Positions 17,345 to 27,435 of a stretch of DNA of 43,783 nucleotides are shown here, piece by piece. Each line of letters starts with the position of its first letter. Position 1 is the first letter of the stretch. This DNA comes from Candidatus Woesearchaeota archaeon. GTDB lineage: Archaea > Nanobdellota > Nanobdellia > Pacearchaeales > GW2011-AR1. The translations under genes were made by a program, and so were the position numbers. Under the pieces are notes generated by a model. The model saw nothing but the letters and a program-made list of their open reading frames with translations. It had not been told where the DNA came from and did not search any database. The DNA is taken from assembly GCA_964518625.1 (NCBI GenBank), contig CAZFHC010000004.1, forward strand, positions 1 through 43,783, in the 5' to 3' direction.

Positions 17345-17425
17345 TTTTTGAATAATATAAATTACGGTTGATAATATTTGCTTTCTTTCCAAAACTTATA
17401 AAAGGATTTATTGTTTTAGTTTTGT

Positions 17426-17920
17426 ATGAGTGATGATGTTGAGCATAAGATTGATTTTGATGATGAAGGGAATATTGTTCTAAAAAAGAAAGTTAATATT
17501 AAGCGTGGTTCAACAAGTCGAGCGAGTGGTGGTCAGTTCGAATTAAGAGTTCGTCATGATTTAATTGATAAAGGTTGGATTGTTGACAAATGGAGCAATA
17601 ATGTTGATTTGGAAAATAATAAGGTTATTCCTGCTAGGAGAGTTTTTAGAAGATTCAAGGCGAATATGGGTGTTATGACTATTGGCACTGGATTCCCAGA
17701 TTTTATTTCTTTTCAATTGATGGATGATAAGTATAAAATTGTTGGTGTTGAAGTTAAAATGAATAACAAGTTATCTCGTGAGGAAAAAATAAAATGTGCT
17801 TGGTATTTGAAAAATAAAATTTTCTCTGAAGTATGGATTGCTAGTAAATATAAGGATAAAAATCGAGTTATGATTAAATATGAAAATTTTGTTGAAACTT
17901 ATCCTAAATTTTTAATATAA
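17426..17920 (+). CDS. PD-(D/E)xK nuclease, Hjc resolvase-like
   Basis: SGGQFELRVRHDLIDKGWIV, GFPDFISF, VGVEVK. Confidence 0.7.
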   Translation: MSDDVEHKIDFDDEGNIVLKKKVNIKRGSTSRASGGQFELRVRHDLIDKGWIVDKWSNNVDLENNKVIPARRVFRRFKANMGVMTIGTGFPDFISFQLMDDKYKIVGVEVKMNNKLSREEKIKCAWYLKNKIFSEVWIASKYKDKNRVMIKYENFVETYPKFLI

Positions 17921-25459: not shown

Positions 25460-26011
25460 ATGAAGCTAATTTATTTTTTTTATTTTTGTTTTCTTTTTAT
25501 TAGTTGTGTTTCTGGATTGGAATTTAGAGCTAGTCCTGAGGAAATTATTTTTGACTGTTTCGTTAATGAAGTTGTTTGTAAAAATATTAGTTTTTATGCT
25601 TCTGAAAATGTTGATGTAAAAGTTGAAGATAGATGGGCTAGTATAGATTTTATGGAAAGGAATTTGGTTAAGCATTCTTTGAGTGTAGAGGATTTAGATA
25701 TTGAGATTGATTATTTGAACGAATTTAATATTGATAAAAAGAATATAATTGAGGTTTGTGTTGTTGGAGAAAATGTCGGATTGTATCATGGGGTTATGTT
25801 AGCTAGAGTTAATGAAAGTCAGACTGGGATTGGTATTTGGTTAAAAATAAATATTAGTAAAAATTCTGATTTGATTAATTTGATTAGTTCTAATGTTGTT
25901 AAGAAGATTAACAGTAATAATTTTGTTAATAAACATCTTTCTTCTCTCGTTGGTTTTCTTGTTTTGATTTTAGTAATTCAATTTTTTATACTTTTAAAAA
26001 GGAAATTATAA
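25460..26011 (+). CDS. Secreted protein with C-terminal TM anchor
   Basis: Start moved to ATG 25460 just after upstream stop; signal peptide MKLIYFFYFCFLFISCVSG; C-terminal TM + KRK. Confidence 0.7.
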   Translation: MKLIYFFYFCFLFISCVSGLEFRASPEEIIFDCFVNEVVCKNISFYASENVDVKVEDRWASIDFMERNLVKHSLSVEDLDIEIDYLNEFNIDKKNIIEVCVVGENVGLYHGVMLARVNESQTGIGIWLKINISKNSDLINLISSNVVKKINSNNFVNKHLSSLVGFLVLILVIQFFILLKRKL

Positions 26012-26329
26012 ATTTTTGTTTAACCAGTTTTTGATTGTCTCTTCTGGTTGTGCACCATTGAATTCGTCAACGATTTTCCCATTTTTGAATAATTTTACTG
26101 AAGGAATACTCATAACTCCATAATCTGTTGCATATTTTTTATTTTCATCTACGTTTACTTTTGCTAGAATCATTTTCCCTTCAAATTTTGTTGAAATTTT
26201 CTCTAACACTGGTTTTAACATAAGACATGGTCCACACCATGGTGCCCAGAAATCTACTAATACTGGTAAATCGTTTGATTGTTTTAATACATCATTTTCA
26301 AAAGAATTATCCGTTGTATCTATTGCCAT
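26006..26329 (-). CDS. trxA: Thioredoxin
   Basis: VLVDFWAPWCGPC, GVMSIPS. Confidence 0.97.
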   Translation of the reverse strand: MAIDTTDNSFENDVLKQSNDLPVLVDFWAPWCGPCLMLKPVLEKISTKFEGKMILAKVNVDENKKYATDYGVMSIPSVKLFKNGKIVDEFNGAQPEETIKNWLNKNL

Positions 26330-26418: not shown

Positions 26419-26784
26419 ATGAGTAAAACTGATTTAATTCAATCTTATAAGTTTGCATTAAAAGGGATAGCTGTTGGTTTTCATAAAGAGCAAAATATCA
26501 AAATACTACTTGTATTTGGATCTATTGCTACTTTCCTTTGTATTATTTTAAATGTATCTCTAATAAAAACATTAATTGTTTTTATTTTATCTACATTAGT
26601 TATAATCTTAGAATTAATTAACACTGCGATAGAAAAATTATGTGATAGAATAACTTCTAAAAATGATTCTGAAATAGCAAAAATAAAAGATATTTGTGCA
26701 GGTATAGTCTTAATTAGTGCTCTATTGGATTTAATTGTTGGATTAATTATAATATCAGAACCTCTCATTGAATTAATCTTATAA
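26419..26784 (+). CDS. dgkA: Prokaryotic diacylglycerol/undecaprenol kinase
   Basis: SYKFALKG...KEQN, LELINTAIEKLCD, AKIKDICAG; three TM helices. Confidence 0.9.
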   Translation: MSKTDLIQSYKFALKGIAVGFHKEQNIKILLVFGSIATFLCIILNVSLIKTLIVFILSTLVIILELINTAIEKLCDRITSKNDSEIAKIKDICAGIVLISALLDLIVGLIIISEPLIELIL

Positions 26785-26818
26785 TAATTAAAATTCTAAT
26801 CTTTTATTACAACAAAAG

Positions 26819-26914
26819 TTAAAATTTATTTTTTATGGATAAATATATTGAAATTTTATTTGATTGTTTTAATACTTCTTTTTTAAAATTTTCATCTGTT
26901 ACATCAATTGCCAT
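26819..26914 (-). pseudogene. Truncated thioredoxin paralogue (N-terminal remnant, 31 codons)
   Basis: MAIDVTDENFKKEVLKQSNK vs TrxA MAIDTTDNSFENDVLKQSND; shares GTATTAAAACAATCAAA with trxA; stops before WCGPC. Confidence 0.8.
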
Positions 26915-26948
26915 TCTTTGACTAAATATTTATTCTTTATAATTTTTT

Positions 26949-27076
26949 AAAAAAAAAGAAGAGAAGAAGACCGAAATCTTCTAAACTTCATTTGAACAAA
27001 ATAACCGAAGTTATTAAATCCAGATGAACAAACAATCGAAACCGAATGCTCAACATGTTAAACCGAAATTTAACAT
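26949..27076 (-). ncRNA. Candidate structured ncRNA, four hairpins carrying UUCGGU, ending in a U9 tract
   Basis: Hairpins ATGTTAAAT-TTCG-GTTTAACAT, GTTGAGC-ATTCG-GTTTCGAT (weak), AATAAC-TTCG-GTTATT, AGAAGAT-TTCG-GTCTTCT; own TATA 21 nt upstream. Confidence 0.6.
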
Positions 27077-27097
27077 ATTATACTTAGGACTCTTTAA

Positions 27098-27105
27098 TTT
27101 AAAAA
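27098..27105 (-). promoter_or_regulatory. TATA box of the candidate ncRNA
   Basis: CAATAAC-TTTTTAAA on minus strand, matching the rpl15e promoter (CAATAAGC-TTTTTAAA); the plus-strand gene at 27163 has its own TATA at 27134-27141. Confidence 0.65.
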
Positions 27106-27162
27106 GTTATTGTTTTACTTGCTACTCAAAATATTTATATAATCTGGGTTTCTTTTAGTTTT

Positions 27163-27435
27163 ATGAGAAGTGTTCCGTTTACTACGGAATATTTTTTGAT
27201 TTTATTGGTTTTTACTTTTTTAGTTTCGGTTGCTGCTATTATTCATGGTATTTTCTTCGACATGGTTTTTTCACAAATTGCTAGATTAAGTTTGGAAGGA
27301 TTGGTTCTTACTTTTTTTATTTTGTTTCCTGCTGTATTATTCTTGGAATGGGTTTATGATCTGAATAATGAACAGAGGTTTGAAGGATTGGAAGCAAGAA
27401 TAAAGAAGTTAGAGAAAAGAAAATTAACCAGATAA
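27163..27435 (+). CDS. Small membrane protein (2 TM)
   Basis: Hydrophobic ORF with TATA 21 nt upstream. Confidence 0.7.
   Translation: MRSVPFTTEYFLILLVFTFLVSVAAIIHGIFFDMVFSQIARLSLEGLVLTFFILFPAVLFLEWVYDLNNEQRFEGLEARIKKLEKRKLTR

What the first reader, a model, noticed from the sequence alone, without database searches (positions are those of the whole stretch)
26949..27105. Candidate new ncRNA: own TATA, four UUCGGU hairpins, U-tract
Seen on the minus strand: TATA (27098-27105) exactly 21 nt before the first base of hairpin 1; hairpins at 27055-27076, 27035-27054 (weak), 27000-27015 and 26965-26982 all present UUCGGU; U9 at 26949-26957. Hairpins 1 and 4 close with U-G pairs that would be A-C mismatches on the plus strand, favouring a minus-strand RNA. 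The only ORF is 8 codons. Known: UUCG is an extra-stable RNA tetraloop. It does not resemble 5S, SRP, RNase P or tRNA by eye. Inference: a stable ~128-nt RNA, possibly a multi-site protein sponge or scaffold (CsrB-like layout) or an antitoxin RNA.
Basis: partly seen in the sequence, partly recalled or inferred. Interest (0 to 1): 0.8.

Follow-up and report, generated by a model that had tools for sequence, protein, structure and literature searches.

The report
UUCG hairpin-array small RNA gene
The four UUCG-capped hairpins are a real stand-alone small RNA gene, a divergent copy of an apparently undescribed family found only in one group of tiny-genome (Pacearchaeota-type DPANN) archaea. The family is conserved in shape rather than sequence, is dispensable, and has no known job.

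Summary
On the minus strand there is a TATA box at 27105-27098, four UUCG-capped hairpins at 27076-26965 and a T9 run at 26957-26949. The fold scores z = -5.96 and is 12 kcal/mol better than the plus strand.

The element is single-copy in its genome and matches nothing in Rfam 15. It is not an orphan. Relatives in the same GTDB family carry small RNA genes with the same plan:
- A BRE/TATA promoter sits about 23-34 nt before the first paired base.
- Usually 3, and up to 7-8, back-to-back C(UUCG)G hairpins follow.
- The last hairpin has a purine-rich 5' arm and is followed by a T-run.

The stems covary strongly: 95% of cells are paired against 78% in shuffles, and 15 of 19 pairs show double changes. 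A model built from 24 members hits the window at 43 bits (E = 7e-9). Typical members score 75-89 bits, so this copy is divergent and possibly decaying.

The family is patchy: 34 of 49 genomes in the genus have it, and the 100%-complete genome G042 does not. It sits at several genomic sites and is sometimes tandemly amplified. The closest relative for this locus lacks it.

My best reading is a very stable RNA that acts in trans through its shape, probably by binding protein. That mechanism is inferred. No transcript data could be obtained.

The parts
27096..27110 (-). BRE/TATA promoter (ATAAC-TTTTTAAAT)
   Evidence: Sequence. In 26 family members the upstream profile shows AAA at -34..-32 and TTTATAA at -29..-23 from the first paired base. 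The window fits this register if A27076 is the first paired base. A separate TATA at 27131-27140 serves the divergent gene that starts at 27163.
27055..27079 (-). Hairpin 1, starting at or next to the predicted transcription start (about 27076). The stem is 9-12 bp, the loop is UUCG and the closing pair is U-G.
   Evidence: It aligns to hairpin 2 of model R1.
27029..27054 (-). Hairpin 2 (weak): GAGCA/UGUUC outer pairs around CGGU-UUCG-AUUG
   Evidence: RNAfold minimum-free-energy and centroid structures. It aligns to the apical part of model hairpin 3 within a 25.2-bit partial match.
26994..27022 (-). Hairpin 3: AAUAAC-UUCG-GUUAUU with the canonical C-G closing pair, inside a GGAUU/GUUCA... 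outer helix
   Evidence: It aligns to model hairpin 1.
26958..26990 (-). Hairpin 4, the terminal hairpin, with a purine-rich 5' arm (GAAG..AGAAGAU) and a pyrimidine-rich 3' arm (GUCUUCU..CUUC)
   Evidence: It aligns to model hairpin 3. The same arm polarity is seen in 63 of 68 family members.
26949..26957 (-). T9 tract, the predicted oligo-T terminator and U-rich 3' tail
   Evidence: Most family members listed have T-rich tails right after the last hairpin.
26819..26948 (-). Neighbour, not part of the RNA: a duplicated thioredoxin promoter plus the first ~25 codons of trx, giving a 31-aa truncated ORF at 26914-26819
   Evidence: Alignment to the true trx start at 26329 and to the trx of relative G285. 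ORF list.

Best explanation
**Shown.**
- Window 27105-26949 (minus strand) is a stand-alone small RNA gene.
- It is a divergent four-hairpin member of a lineage-specific family of UUCG hairpin-array small RNAs.
- In my searches the family occurs in only one GTDB family of Pacearchaeota-type DPANN archaea.

**Inferred from sequence and family comparison.**
- Transcription starts at about A27076, roughly 24 nt after the BRE/TATA box, so the 5' end is already base-paired.
- The RNA folds into four consecutive capped hairpins.
- Transcription ends in the T9 tract, giving an RNA of about 120-128 nt with a U-rich 3' tail.

**Inferred mechanism.**
- Stems change freely but stay paired, linkers are 0-3 nt, and no internal loops or single-stranded seed are conserved.
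- The RNA therefore acts through shape, not through base-pairing to targets or binding a ligand.
- The most likely role is an abundant, nuclease-resistant RNA that acts in trans and binds protein at several sites, as a decoy or scaffold.
- The Sm-like protein encoded in this genome is a plausible binder of the U tail.
- Dose would be tuned by hairpin number and gene copy number.
- The family is dispensable, so the role is accessory.
For: **The fold and its strand.**
- The minus-strand fold has z = -5.96 and beats the plus strand by 12 kcal/mol.

**Related genes exist.**
- A pattern search in 301 genomes of the order found arrays in 36 genomes, all in family f1.
- Most of the listed matches have different stems under the same UUCG caps.

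**Covariation.**
- RNAalifold on 24 members found 11 of 19 pairs with compensatory changes.
- On 68 distinct members, 95.2% of cells are paired against 77.6% in shuffles (0 of 500 shuffles reach it).
- In that set 15 of 19 pairs show double changes, and slid controls give only 21-46% paired.
- 67 of 68 members fold better on the given strand, -29.4 against -18.3 kcal/mol on average.

**The window belongs to the family.**
- Model R1 hits the window at 43.4 bits, E = 7e-9 genome-wide.
- The promoter motif sits at a fixed distance from hairpin 1 in 26 members, and the window is in the same register.
- Most tails after the last hairpin are T-rich.

**Acting in trans rather than in cis.**
- Members sit at at least three different conserved sites: before a PC4-like gene, before aIF5B, and divergent from DUF424/aIF1A.
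- Of the 19 arrays with a downstream ORF within 400 nt, 5 face a gene on the opposite strand.
- One genome has about three tandem copies in an ORF-free stretch, and those I read each have their own promoter.
- Arrays of 4 to 7-8 hairpins arise by internal duplication.
- Here the downstream gene is only a truncated trx copy.

**A possible tail binder.** An LSM/SmAP gene is present in G000 and in 46 of 49 genomes of the genus.
Against: **No partner identified.**
- No protein partner was found, and no gene is consistently adjacent.
- SmAP presence does not track RNA presence.
- UUCG tetraloops are classically inert thermodynamic caps rather than protein sites. The same cap occurs in a tRNA-Ser variable arm of relatives, so the shared loop may reflect a lineage habit and not a binding site.

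**Ascertainment bias.**
- The family set was gathered with a UUCG-based pattern and a model built from it, so loop invariance is partly built in.
- Alignment A2 is fitted to the model.

**This copy is atypical.**
- It scores 43 bits against 75-89 for typical members.
- Three of its four caps lack the C-G closing pair, which is present in 81 of 82 family hairpins.
- Its second hairpin is weak.
- The closest relative for this locus (G285, whose neighbouring protein is 82% identical) has no array in the corresponding spacer.
- The copy could therefore be decaying.
Confidence: 0.55

Rival explanations
1. The window copy is a decaying or non-functional relic of the family. On this reading it was once a working hairpin-array RNA gene in front of trx. 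It is now drifting under AT pressure after the local rearrangement.
For: - The R1 score is only 43.4 bits against 75-89 for typical members.
- Three of four caps are U-G or U-A closed, while 81 of 82 family hairpins have C-G.
- The model sees two partial units, and hairpin 2 is weak.
- The family is dispensable: 15 of 49 genomes in the genus gave no R1 match at E <= 0.001 under the stricter filters, among them the 100%-complete G042.
- G285 lacks the array at the corresponding site.
- The region carries a trx 5' duplication and an inserted dgkA.
Against: - The promoter is still in the family register and the T9 tract is intact.
- All four stems still pair, and the fold has z = -5.96.
- The changes at the closing pairs are C-to-U, which keep a wobble pair rather than break it.
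- Four-hairpin composites also occur in other genomes.
Confidence: 0.25
2. It is a cis-acting transcription module. On this reading the short unit exists to influence the promoter immediately downstream, and the RNA product is incidental. It could act as an insulator or terminator, or by handing off polymerase.
For: - In 14 of the 19 arrays with a downstream ORF within 400 nt, that gene is co-oriented.
- In 8 of the 12 closest PC4-like loci the array lies directly upstream of the gene, ending a few tens of nt before its start.
- In several members the T-run overlaps or abuts the next TATA box.
- In the window the T9 abuts the duplicated trx promoter.
Against: - Five of those 19 arrays face an opposite-strand gene.
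- Tandem copies each with their own promoter occur with no gene between them.
- Stems covary and use many G-U pairs, which points to selection on the RNA fold and not merely on termination.
- An oligo-T run alone is enough for archaeal termination (established knowledge).
- Here the downstream ORF is a truncated fragment.
Confidence: 0.13
3. It is an RNA antitoxin or defence-associated decoy. It could be type III-like, or a decoy for a loop-specific RNase such as a PIN/VapC toxin.
For: - The layout is an array followed by a terminator.
- The family is patchy, variable in copy number and tandemly amplifiable.
- According to an earlier first-stage note that I did not check, PIN-domain genes lie elsewhere in the window.
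Against: - The hairpins are not identical tandem repeats.
- Downstream genes are housekeeping genes (PC4-like, aIF5B, trx), not nucleases.
- I found no genuine copies in viral contigs.
Confidence: 0.04
4. It is a DNA-level element: a REP or MITE-like repeat, a cruciform, or repeated binding sites for a DNA-binding protein.
For: TTCGGT recurs four times within 98 nt.
Against: - It is single-copy in the genome.
- Each copy in relatives has its own promoter.
- The stems differ while the loops stay the same, which is the reverse of what a DNA site would show.
- Frequent G-U pairs make the structure strand-specific: 67 of 68 members fold better on one strand.
Confidence: 0.02

Closest known systems
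CsrB/CsrC and RsmX/Y/Z protein-sponge small RNAs (bacteria)
   Same: - It is a stand-alone small RNA gene.
- It is a string of hairpins that all present the same apical motif.
- Hairpin number varies between homologs.
- It has a terminal hairpin plus a U-run.
- It has no conserved single-stranded seed.
   Different: - The loops are UUCG, not GGA.
- No CsrA/RsmE homolog is present.
- It is archaeal, with a TATA promoter.
- UUCG is normally an inert cap.
- No partner is known, so the resemblance is one of layout only.
C(UUCG)G extra-stable hairpins in phage T4 intercistronic regions and rRNA (Tuerk et al. 1988, cited from memory)
   Same: It uses the same tetraloop and closing pair, which nucleate and stabilise short stems and protect RNA.
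   Different: - Those are single hairpins inside mRNAs or rRNA.
- Here arrays of 3 to 7-8 hairpins form a separate transcription unit with its own promoter and terminator.
Type III antitoxin RNAs (ToxI, CptI, TenpI)
   Same: It is a repetitive structured RNA array followed by a terminator and a co-oriented gene.
   Different: - Those are identical 34-36-nt direct repeats processed by the adjacent toxin.
- Here the stems all differ and the downstream genes are not nucleases.
Orphan archaeal small RNAs found as GC-rich islands in AT-rich genomes (HgcC-G class, Klein, Misulovin and Eddy 2002, cited from memory)
   Same: - It is a GC-richer structured island in an AT-rich archaeal genome.
- It has its own TATA box and T-run.
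- Its function is unknown.
   Different: - It has no sequence or Rfam relationship to them.
- Its architecture of back-to-back tetraloop hairpins is different.

Membership tests
UUCG hairpin-array sRNA family of Pacearchaeota-type DPANN (unnamed; defined here by model R1) | Significant match to the covariance model built from 24 members | tested here: met
   The window scores 43.4 bits, E = 7e-9 over the whole genome. This is well below the 75-89 bits of typical members, so the copy is divergent.
UUCG hairpin-array sRNA family of Pacearchaeota-type DPANN (unnamed; defined here by model R1) | BRE-like AAA at -34..-32 and a TATA box at -29..-23 from the first paired base | tested here: met
   The profile comes from 26 members. 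The window reads A-T-A-A-C-TTTTTAA at -34..-23 when A27076 is taken as the first paired base.
UUCG hairpin-array sRNA family of Pacearchaeota-type DPANN (unnamed; defined here by model R1) | Three or more back-to-back hairpins with short linkers, each capped by UUCG | tested here: met
   The window has four hairpins with linkers of 0-3 nt. In the family, linkers are mostly 0-3 nt.
UUCG hairpin-array sRNA family of Pacearchaeota-type DPANN (unnamed; defined here by model R1) | C-G pair closing every UUCG loop | tested here: not met
   In the family 81 of 82 hairpins have a C-G closing pair. In the window only hairpin 3 has it. Hairpins 1 and 4 are U-G and hairpin 2 is U-A. This is the main reason to call the copy divergent or decaying.
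UUCG hairpin-array sRNA family of Pacearchaeota-type DPANN (unnamed; defined here by model R1) | Last hairpin with a purine-rich 5' arm and a pyrimidine-rich 3' arm, followed by a T-rich tail | tested here: met
   The window reads GAAG..AGAAGA / UCUUCU..CUUC followed by T9. The same polarity holds in 63 of 68 members, and most tails are T-rich.
CsrB/RsmZ-type protein sponge | Multiple GGA motifs exposed in the hairpin loops | tested here: not met
   All loops are UUCG and none contains GGA.
CsrB/RsmZ-type protein sponge | A CsrA/RsmE partner encoded in the genome | tested here: not met
   PF02599 gives no match in G000, while the control genomes do respond.
Type III antitoxin RNA (ToxI-like) | Identical tandem direct repeats directly upstream of a ToxN/AbiEii-type endoribonuclease gene | tested here: not met
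   The four stems all differ. The downstream ORF is a 31-aa thioredoxin fragment, followed by dgkA on the other strand.
Known Rfam families (tRNA, 5S, SRP, RNase P, C/D and H/ACA sRNAs, and others) | Match at or near the family's gathering score | tested here: not met
   - At gathering threshold the window yields only three tRNAs elsewhere.
- With E up to 10 on 26700-27300, the best overlapping match is Lnt at 17.6 bits against a cut-off of 55.
- A canonical member gives at best 19 bits against 45.
- 20 related loci yield only tRNAs.
REP or MITE-like repeated DNA element | Many promoterless copies per genome | tested here: not met
   There is one copy in the 673-kb assembly. The 26 parsed copies in relatives show a promoter motif at a fixed distance.
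Terminator or 3' UTR hairpins of an upstream gene | A co-oriented gene ending just upstream | tested here: not met
   The upstream neighbour (27163-27435) is on the plus strand and divergent. It has its own TATA box at 27131-27140.

The most novel reading that the evidence does not exclude
The family is the RNA half of an unrecognised archaeal titration system. A still unidentified DPANN protein would recognise cUUCGg-capped short helices, or the GGAG/CUCC terminal helix with its U tail. That helix resembles a Shine-Dalgarno/anti-Shine-Dalgarno duplex. The protein would be buffered by a hyper-stable multivalent RNA, with dose set by hairpin number and tandem gene copies. This would be the first CsrB-like protein sponge in Archaea and a natural protein-recognition role for the supposedly inert UUCG cap.
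Probability: 0.2. Interest if true: 0.75.

Novelty: new variant of a known kind. Interest (0 to 1): 0.5.

Why it matters
Very few non-coding RNAs are known from DPANN archaea, which are uncultivated, have tiny genomes and mostly live as symbionts.

- **A compact new family.** Here is a small RNA gene family with a clear promoter, terminator and covarying structure that is absent from Rfam 15. I found no description of it in two full-text literature searches.
- **An unusual design.** It has a paired 5' end from +1, only maximally stable caps, almost no single-stranded sequence and a variable number of modules. This points to an RNA selected for persistence and shape, which is rare among characterised archaeal sRNAs.
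- **Practical use.** A model of the family would let annotators label these loci in the MAGs that carry them.
- **Limits.** The family is narrow and dispensable, its function is unknown, and this window's copy is an atypical member.

Tried and rejected
**Searches that found nothing useful.**
- BLAST of the element against the own genome and 40 relatives gave no homolog beyond chance-level 15-30-nt matches. Sequence similarity alone does not find the family.
- Rfam at gathering and at permissive E-values, run on the window, on 26 related loci and on a canonical member, found nothing.
- Two literature searches found no description of the family.

**Collection scans.**
- In all GTDB species genomes the pattern gave 64 hits. 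About half are DPANN archaea. The bacterial and other hits are simple tandem or coding repeats, not arrays with distinct stems.
- In viral contigs there were 5 hits, none convincing.
- In metagenome contigs only 8 of the first 80 rows are true members, and all are DNA contigs that give no transcript ends.

**Conserved sites checked in the own genome.**
- The DUF424/aIF1A, PC4-like and aIF5B sites that hold the RNA in relatives hold no array in G000.
- G285, the only close match for the neighbouring 114-aa gene, has no array in the corresponding spacer.

**Partner tests.**
- LSM/SmAP is present in nearly every genome of the genus, so it says nothing about co-occurrence.
- CsrA is absent.

**Other.**
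- A pattern search for the loop of a second RNA type was uninformative outside the own genome.

**Ideas considered and rejected.**
- 5S, SRP and RNase P RNA: no Rfam match, wrong architecture, and the family is absent from the 100%-complete genome G042.
- H/ACA or C/D guide RNAs: no boxes, pockets or K-turns.
- Riboswitch: no conserved junctions or loops.
- Antisense sRNA: no conserved single-stranded seed.

Full report
**1. The observation**

- TTTTTAAA lies at 27105-27098.
- Twenty-one bases later comes hairpin 1 (27076-27055, AUGUUAAAU-UUCG-GUUUAACAU).
- A weak second hairpin follows at 27054-27035.
- Hairpin 3 is at 27015-27000 (AAUAAC-UUCG-GUUAUU).
- Hairpin 4 is at 26982-26965 (AGAAGAU-UUCG-GUCUUCU, inside an outer GAAG/CUUC helix).
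- Nine T's lie at 26957-26949.

RNAfold gives the four-hairpin structure as both the minimum-free-energy and the centroid structure. The energy is -34.6 kcal/mol with z = -5.96, and 0 of 200 shuffles do as well. The plus strand reaches only -22.4 kcal/mol with z = -4.84.

The clustering is not chance.
- TTCGGT occurs 14 times in the window against 7.15 expected, and four copies lie within 98 nt.
- In the whole 673-kb assembly I count 33 UUCG hairpins with stems of at least 5 bp. This is the only place where they cluster.

One detail is wrong. A 22-codon ORF (ATG at 27056) and a 44-aa plus-strand ORF also overlap the element. I did not test either for conservation or coding potential.

**2. What it is not**

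- Rfam 15 gives only three tRNAs elsewhere in the window at gathering threshold.
- With E up to 10 on 26700-27300, the best overlapping match is 17.6 bits against a cut-off of 55.
- The element is single-copy in its own genome, so it is not a REP or MITE-type repeat.
- The gene upstream (27163-27435) is divergent and has its own TATA box at 27131-27140. The hairpins are therefore not that gene's terminator.

**3. Relatives**

BLAST finds no homolog in 40 relatives. A pattern that asks only for three TTCGGT words 10-40 nt apart hits 36 of 301 genomes of the order. All 36 are in the window's own GTDB family, f1. The reversed control pattern also hits about 30 genomes, so the count alone proves nothing. 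The content of the hits is what matters.

Once extracted and folded, most hits show the same plan.
- A BRE/TATA box (for example AAAGCTTTATAA) comes first.
- About 24 nt later there are usually three back-to-back hairpins, each capped C(UUCG)G, with 0-3-nt linkers. Some arrays have four hairpins and a few have up to 7-8.
- The last hairpin is longer (about 12 bp), with a GGAG-type purine arm and a CUCC-type pyrimidine arm.
- A T-run or the variant ACTTATATTC follows.

The stems differ from genome to genome while the caps stay the same.

NCBI titles of matching contigs are Pacearchaeota, Woesearchaeota or Nanoarchaeota MAGs. Hits to the same pattern in bacteria, other archaea and viral contigs are simple tandem or coding repeats and do not belong to the family.

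**4. Structure conservation**

- A MAFFT alignment of 24 three-hairpin members gives an RNAalifold consensus of 19 pairs, 11 of them with compensatory double changes.
- I built covariance model R1 from this alignment and used it to align 68 distinct members.
- On that alignment 95.2% of cells are paired against 77.6% in column shuffles (0 of 500 reach it). Fifteen of 19 pairs show changes on both sides.
- Sliding the partners by 1-3 columns drops pairing to 21-46%.
- G-U pairs are frequent. In line with this, 67 of 68 members fold better on the given strand than on its complement (-29.4 against -18.3 kcal/mol on average).

Caveats apply. The set was gathered with UUCG-based queries, so loop invariance is partly built in. 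Alignment A2 is fitted to the model. The stems were not part of the query, however, so their covariation is independent evidence for an RNA-level structure.

**5. Promoter and ends**

In 26 parsed arrays the upstream profile has peaks of 0.8-1.4 bits against a background of 0.1-0.5 bits. These peaks are AAA at -34..-32 and T-T-T-A/T-T-A-A at -29..-23 from the first paired base. That is the geometry of an archaeal BRE/TATA promoter whose start site falls on the first nucleotide of hairpin 1.

The window fits in the same register if A27076 is the first paired base (ATAAC-TTTTTAA at -34..-23). It also has a T-A initiator-like step at 27077/27076.

Most of the tails listed after the last hairpin are T-rich. 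The predicted RNA therefore starts base-paired and ends in a hairpin plus a U tail. Here that gives about 120-128 nt.

**6. Where the window copy stands**

R1 hits the window at 43.4 bits (E = 7e-9 for the genome), while typical members score 75-89 bits. The alignment reads the element as two partial units.
- Hairpin 3 matches model hairpin 1.
- Hairpin 4 matches model hairpin 3.
- Hairpins 1 and 2 match model hairpins 2 and 3, in a 25-bit partial match.

Only hairpin 3 keeps the C-G closing pair, which is present in 81 of 82 family hairpins.

The genome has no other copy, and none at the sites that hold the RNA in relatives. G285 is the only close match for the neighbouring 114-aa gene (82% identity). 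It has the same order of 114-aa gene, 90-aa gene, spacer and trx, but no array in its 420-nt spacer.

In the window the T9 is followed at once by a duplicate of the trx promoter and first ~25 codons. Next comes dgkA on the other strand, and then the intact trx. The original arrangement was therefore probably RNA gene, T-run, trx promoter, trx. This matches the layout of RNA gene, T-run, promoter and leaderless gene seen at other family sites. The copy is divergent and could be decaying. Even so, its promoter, stems and terminator are all intact.

**7. Distribution and context**

- Within the genus, 34 of 49 genomes have 1-5 matches at E <= 0.001.
- Fifteen have none at that threshold under the stricter filters used for more than 40 genomes. 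They include the 100%-complete G042 and the 91%-complete G012. The RNA is therefore not housekeeping.
- A phylum-wide sample of 401 good genomes gave matches only in family f1. That screen scored only 11 candidates per genome, so it is insensitive.

Members occupy at least three conserved sites.
- One is directly upstream of a PC4-domain gene. It holds the RNA in 8 of the 12 closest homologs, and the other 4 have tRNA-Ser(GCU) in that slot.
- One is upstream of aIF5B.
- One is divergent from DUF424/aIF1A.

Of the 19 arrays with a downstream ORF within 400 nt, that gene is co-oriented in 14 and opposite in 5. One genome carries about three tandem copies in an ORF-free stretch. Trf finds a 292-nt period, and the copies I read each have their own promoter. 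Others carry two adjacent copies or arrays of up to 7-8 hairpins.

**8. How it most likely works**

Shown:
- It is a conserved, strand-specific RNA structure.
- It has a promoter and a terminator at fixed positions.
- It is modular, variable in copy number and dispensable.

Inferred:
- Stems vary freely, linkers are minimal, and there are no conserved internal loops, junctions or single-stranded seed. The RNA is therefore unlikely to be an antisense regulator, a riboswitch or a ribozyme.
- What is conserved is a row of short A-form helices with maximally stable caps, a paired 5' end and a U tail. That design suits persistence against exonucleases and recognition by shape.
- I therefore favour an abundant RNA acting in trans that binds protein at several sites, as a decoy or scaffold. 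The Sm-like protein is a plausible tail binder, since it is encoded in G000 and in 46 of 49 genomes of the genus.

I put about 0.85 on 'real RNA gene of this family' and about 0.3-0.35 on the protein-binding mechanism.

Counter-points:
- UUCG is normally inert.
- The same cap appears in a tRNA variable arm in relatives.
- No partner was found.
- CsrA is absent.

Rivals, in order of weight:
- The copy is a decaying relic.
- It is a cis module acting on the adjacent promoter.
- It is an antitoxin or defence decoy.
- It is a DNA-level element.

**9. Comparison and novelty**

The layout is closest to CsrB/Rsm sponges, but the defining features (GGA loops, CsrA) were tested and not met. The similarity is therefore one of how it might work, not of family membership. 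It is not a type III antitoxin and belongs to no Rfam family.

Two full-text literature searches found no description. Earlier notes of this scan describe the same family in other genomes. I treated them as leads and re-derived the family, its covariation and the PC4 link independently. I also add new results:
- the promoter register;
- the restriction of matches to family f1;
- dispensability;
- the tandem gene copies;
- the comparison with G285;
- the divergent state of this copy.

I rate it as a new RNA family of a broadly known kind, a multi-hairpin stand-alone sRNA. Interest is moderate.

**10. Limits**

- The genomes are uncultivated MAGs.
- The family set is biased toward UUCG loops.
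- E-values from R1 are rough.

Noticed in passing
window 26819-26965 (minus), 26419-26784 (plus), 26006-26329 (minus): The thioredoxin promoter and first ~25 codons are duplicated, giving a 31-aa truncated ORF at 26914-26819. A dgkA gene lies between the fragment and the intact trx. Relative G285 has trx directly after the spacer with no dgkA, so this is a recent local rearrangement.
   Followed up: yes
own genome G000: C1:54036-54118 (minus), the end of C17 (about 17390-17467, minus) and the start of C26 (1-67, plus): A second small RNA-like element is present in three near-identical copies, two of them at contig ends. It has one UUCG hairpin (GUUUGGU-UUCG-GCUAAGC). A GAGAG/CUCUC hairpin follows, with the conserved loop AGGUAACGUAAAAA, and then a U-run. 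Related units lie just upstream of the canonical three-hairpin RNA in loci L174 and L176. There is no Rfam match. It overlaps or adjoins an earlier first-reader note on this genome.
   Followed up: partly
L024 (G188:C10) about 1345-1611 and L058 (G240:C15) about 300-530: A larger RNA-like locus has seven UUCG-capped hairpins. It does not end in a T-run but continues into a conserved stretch (GAUGAU..CUCUUGUAG..GAUCAGG.CUAG). This may be a different, longer structured RNA. There is no Rfam match at E <= 0.01.
   Followed up: partly
L169-L173, the ~230 nt upstream of the PC4-like gene: In four relatives a tRNA-Ser(GCU) gene occupies the slot that holds the hairpin RNA in others. Its variable arm is capped by a tetraloop, CCC-UUCG-GGG in three of them and CUCC in L171. 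The cap is therefore a general habit of this lineage.
   Followed up: partly
L124 (JBNMFJ010000023.1, titled 'Patescibacteria group bacterium'), 545-1296: The contig carries about three tandem archaeal-type hairpin-array RNA genes with TATA promoters. It appears to be the same contig as G321:C23, which GTDB places in the window's archaeal genus. The NCBI label is probably wrong.
   Followed up: partly
own genome G000: C24:1-70 (minus): At a contig end, after a long T-rich tract, the sequence UAUACUCAUAAUCUC-UUCG-GAGAU resembles the start of the L176 unit (UAUACUCAAAUCUC-UUCG-GAGAC). It may be the truncated start of another member, cut off by the assembly.
   Followed up: no
internal positions of multi-hairpin arrays in L026, L027, L028 and L031, and after the last hairpin in L018, L045 and L046: A conserved motif, CCAC-TTATATTC, follows GGAG/CUCC-type hairpins, both at array ends and inside long arrays. 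It could be a weak terminator, a TATA-like box or a conserved single-stranded site. I have not resolved which.
   Followed up: no
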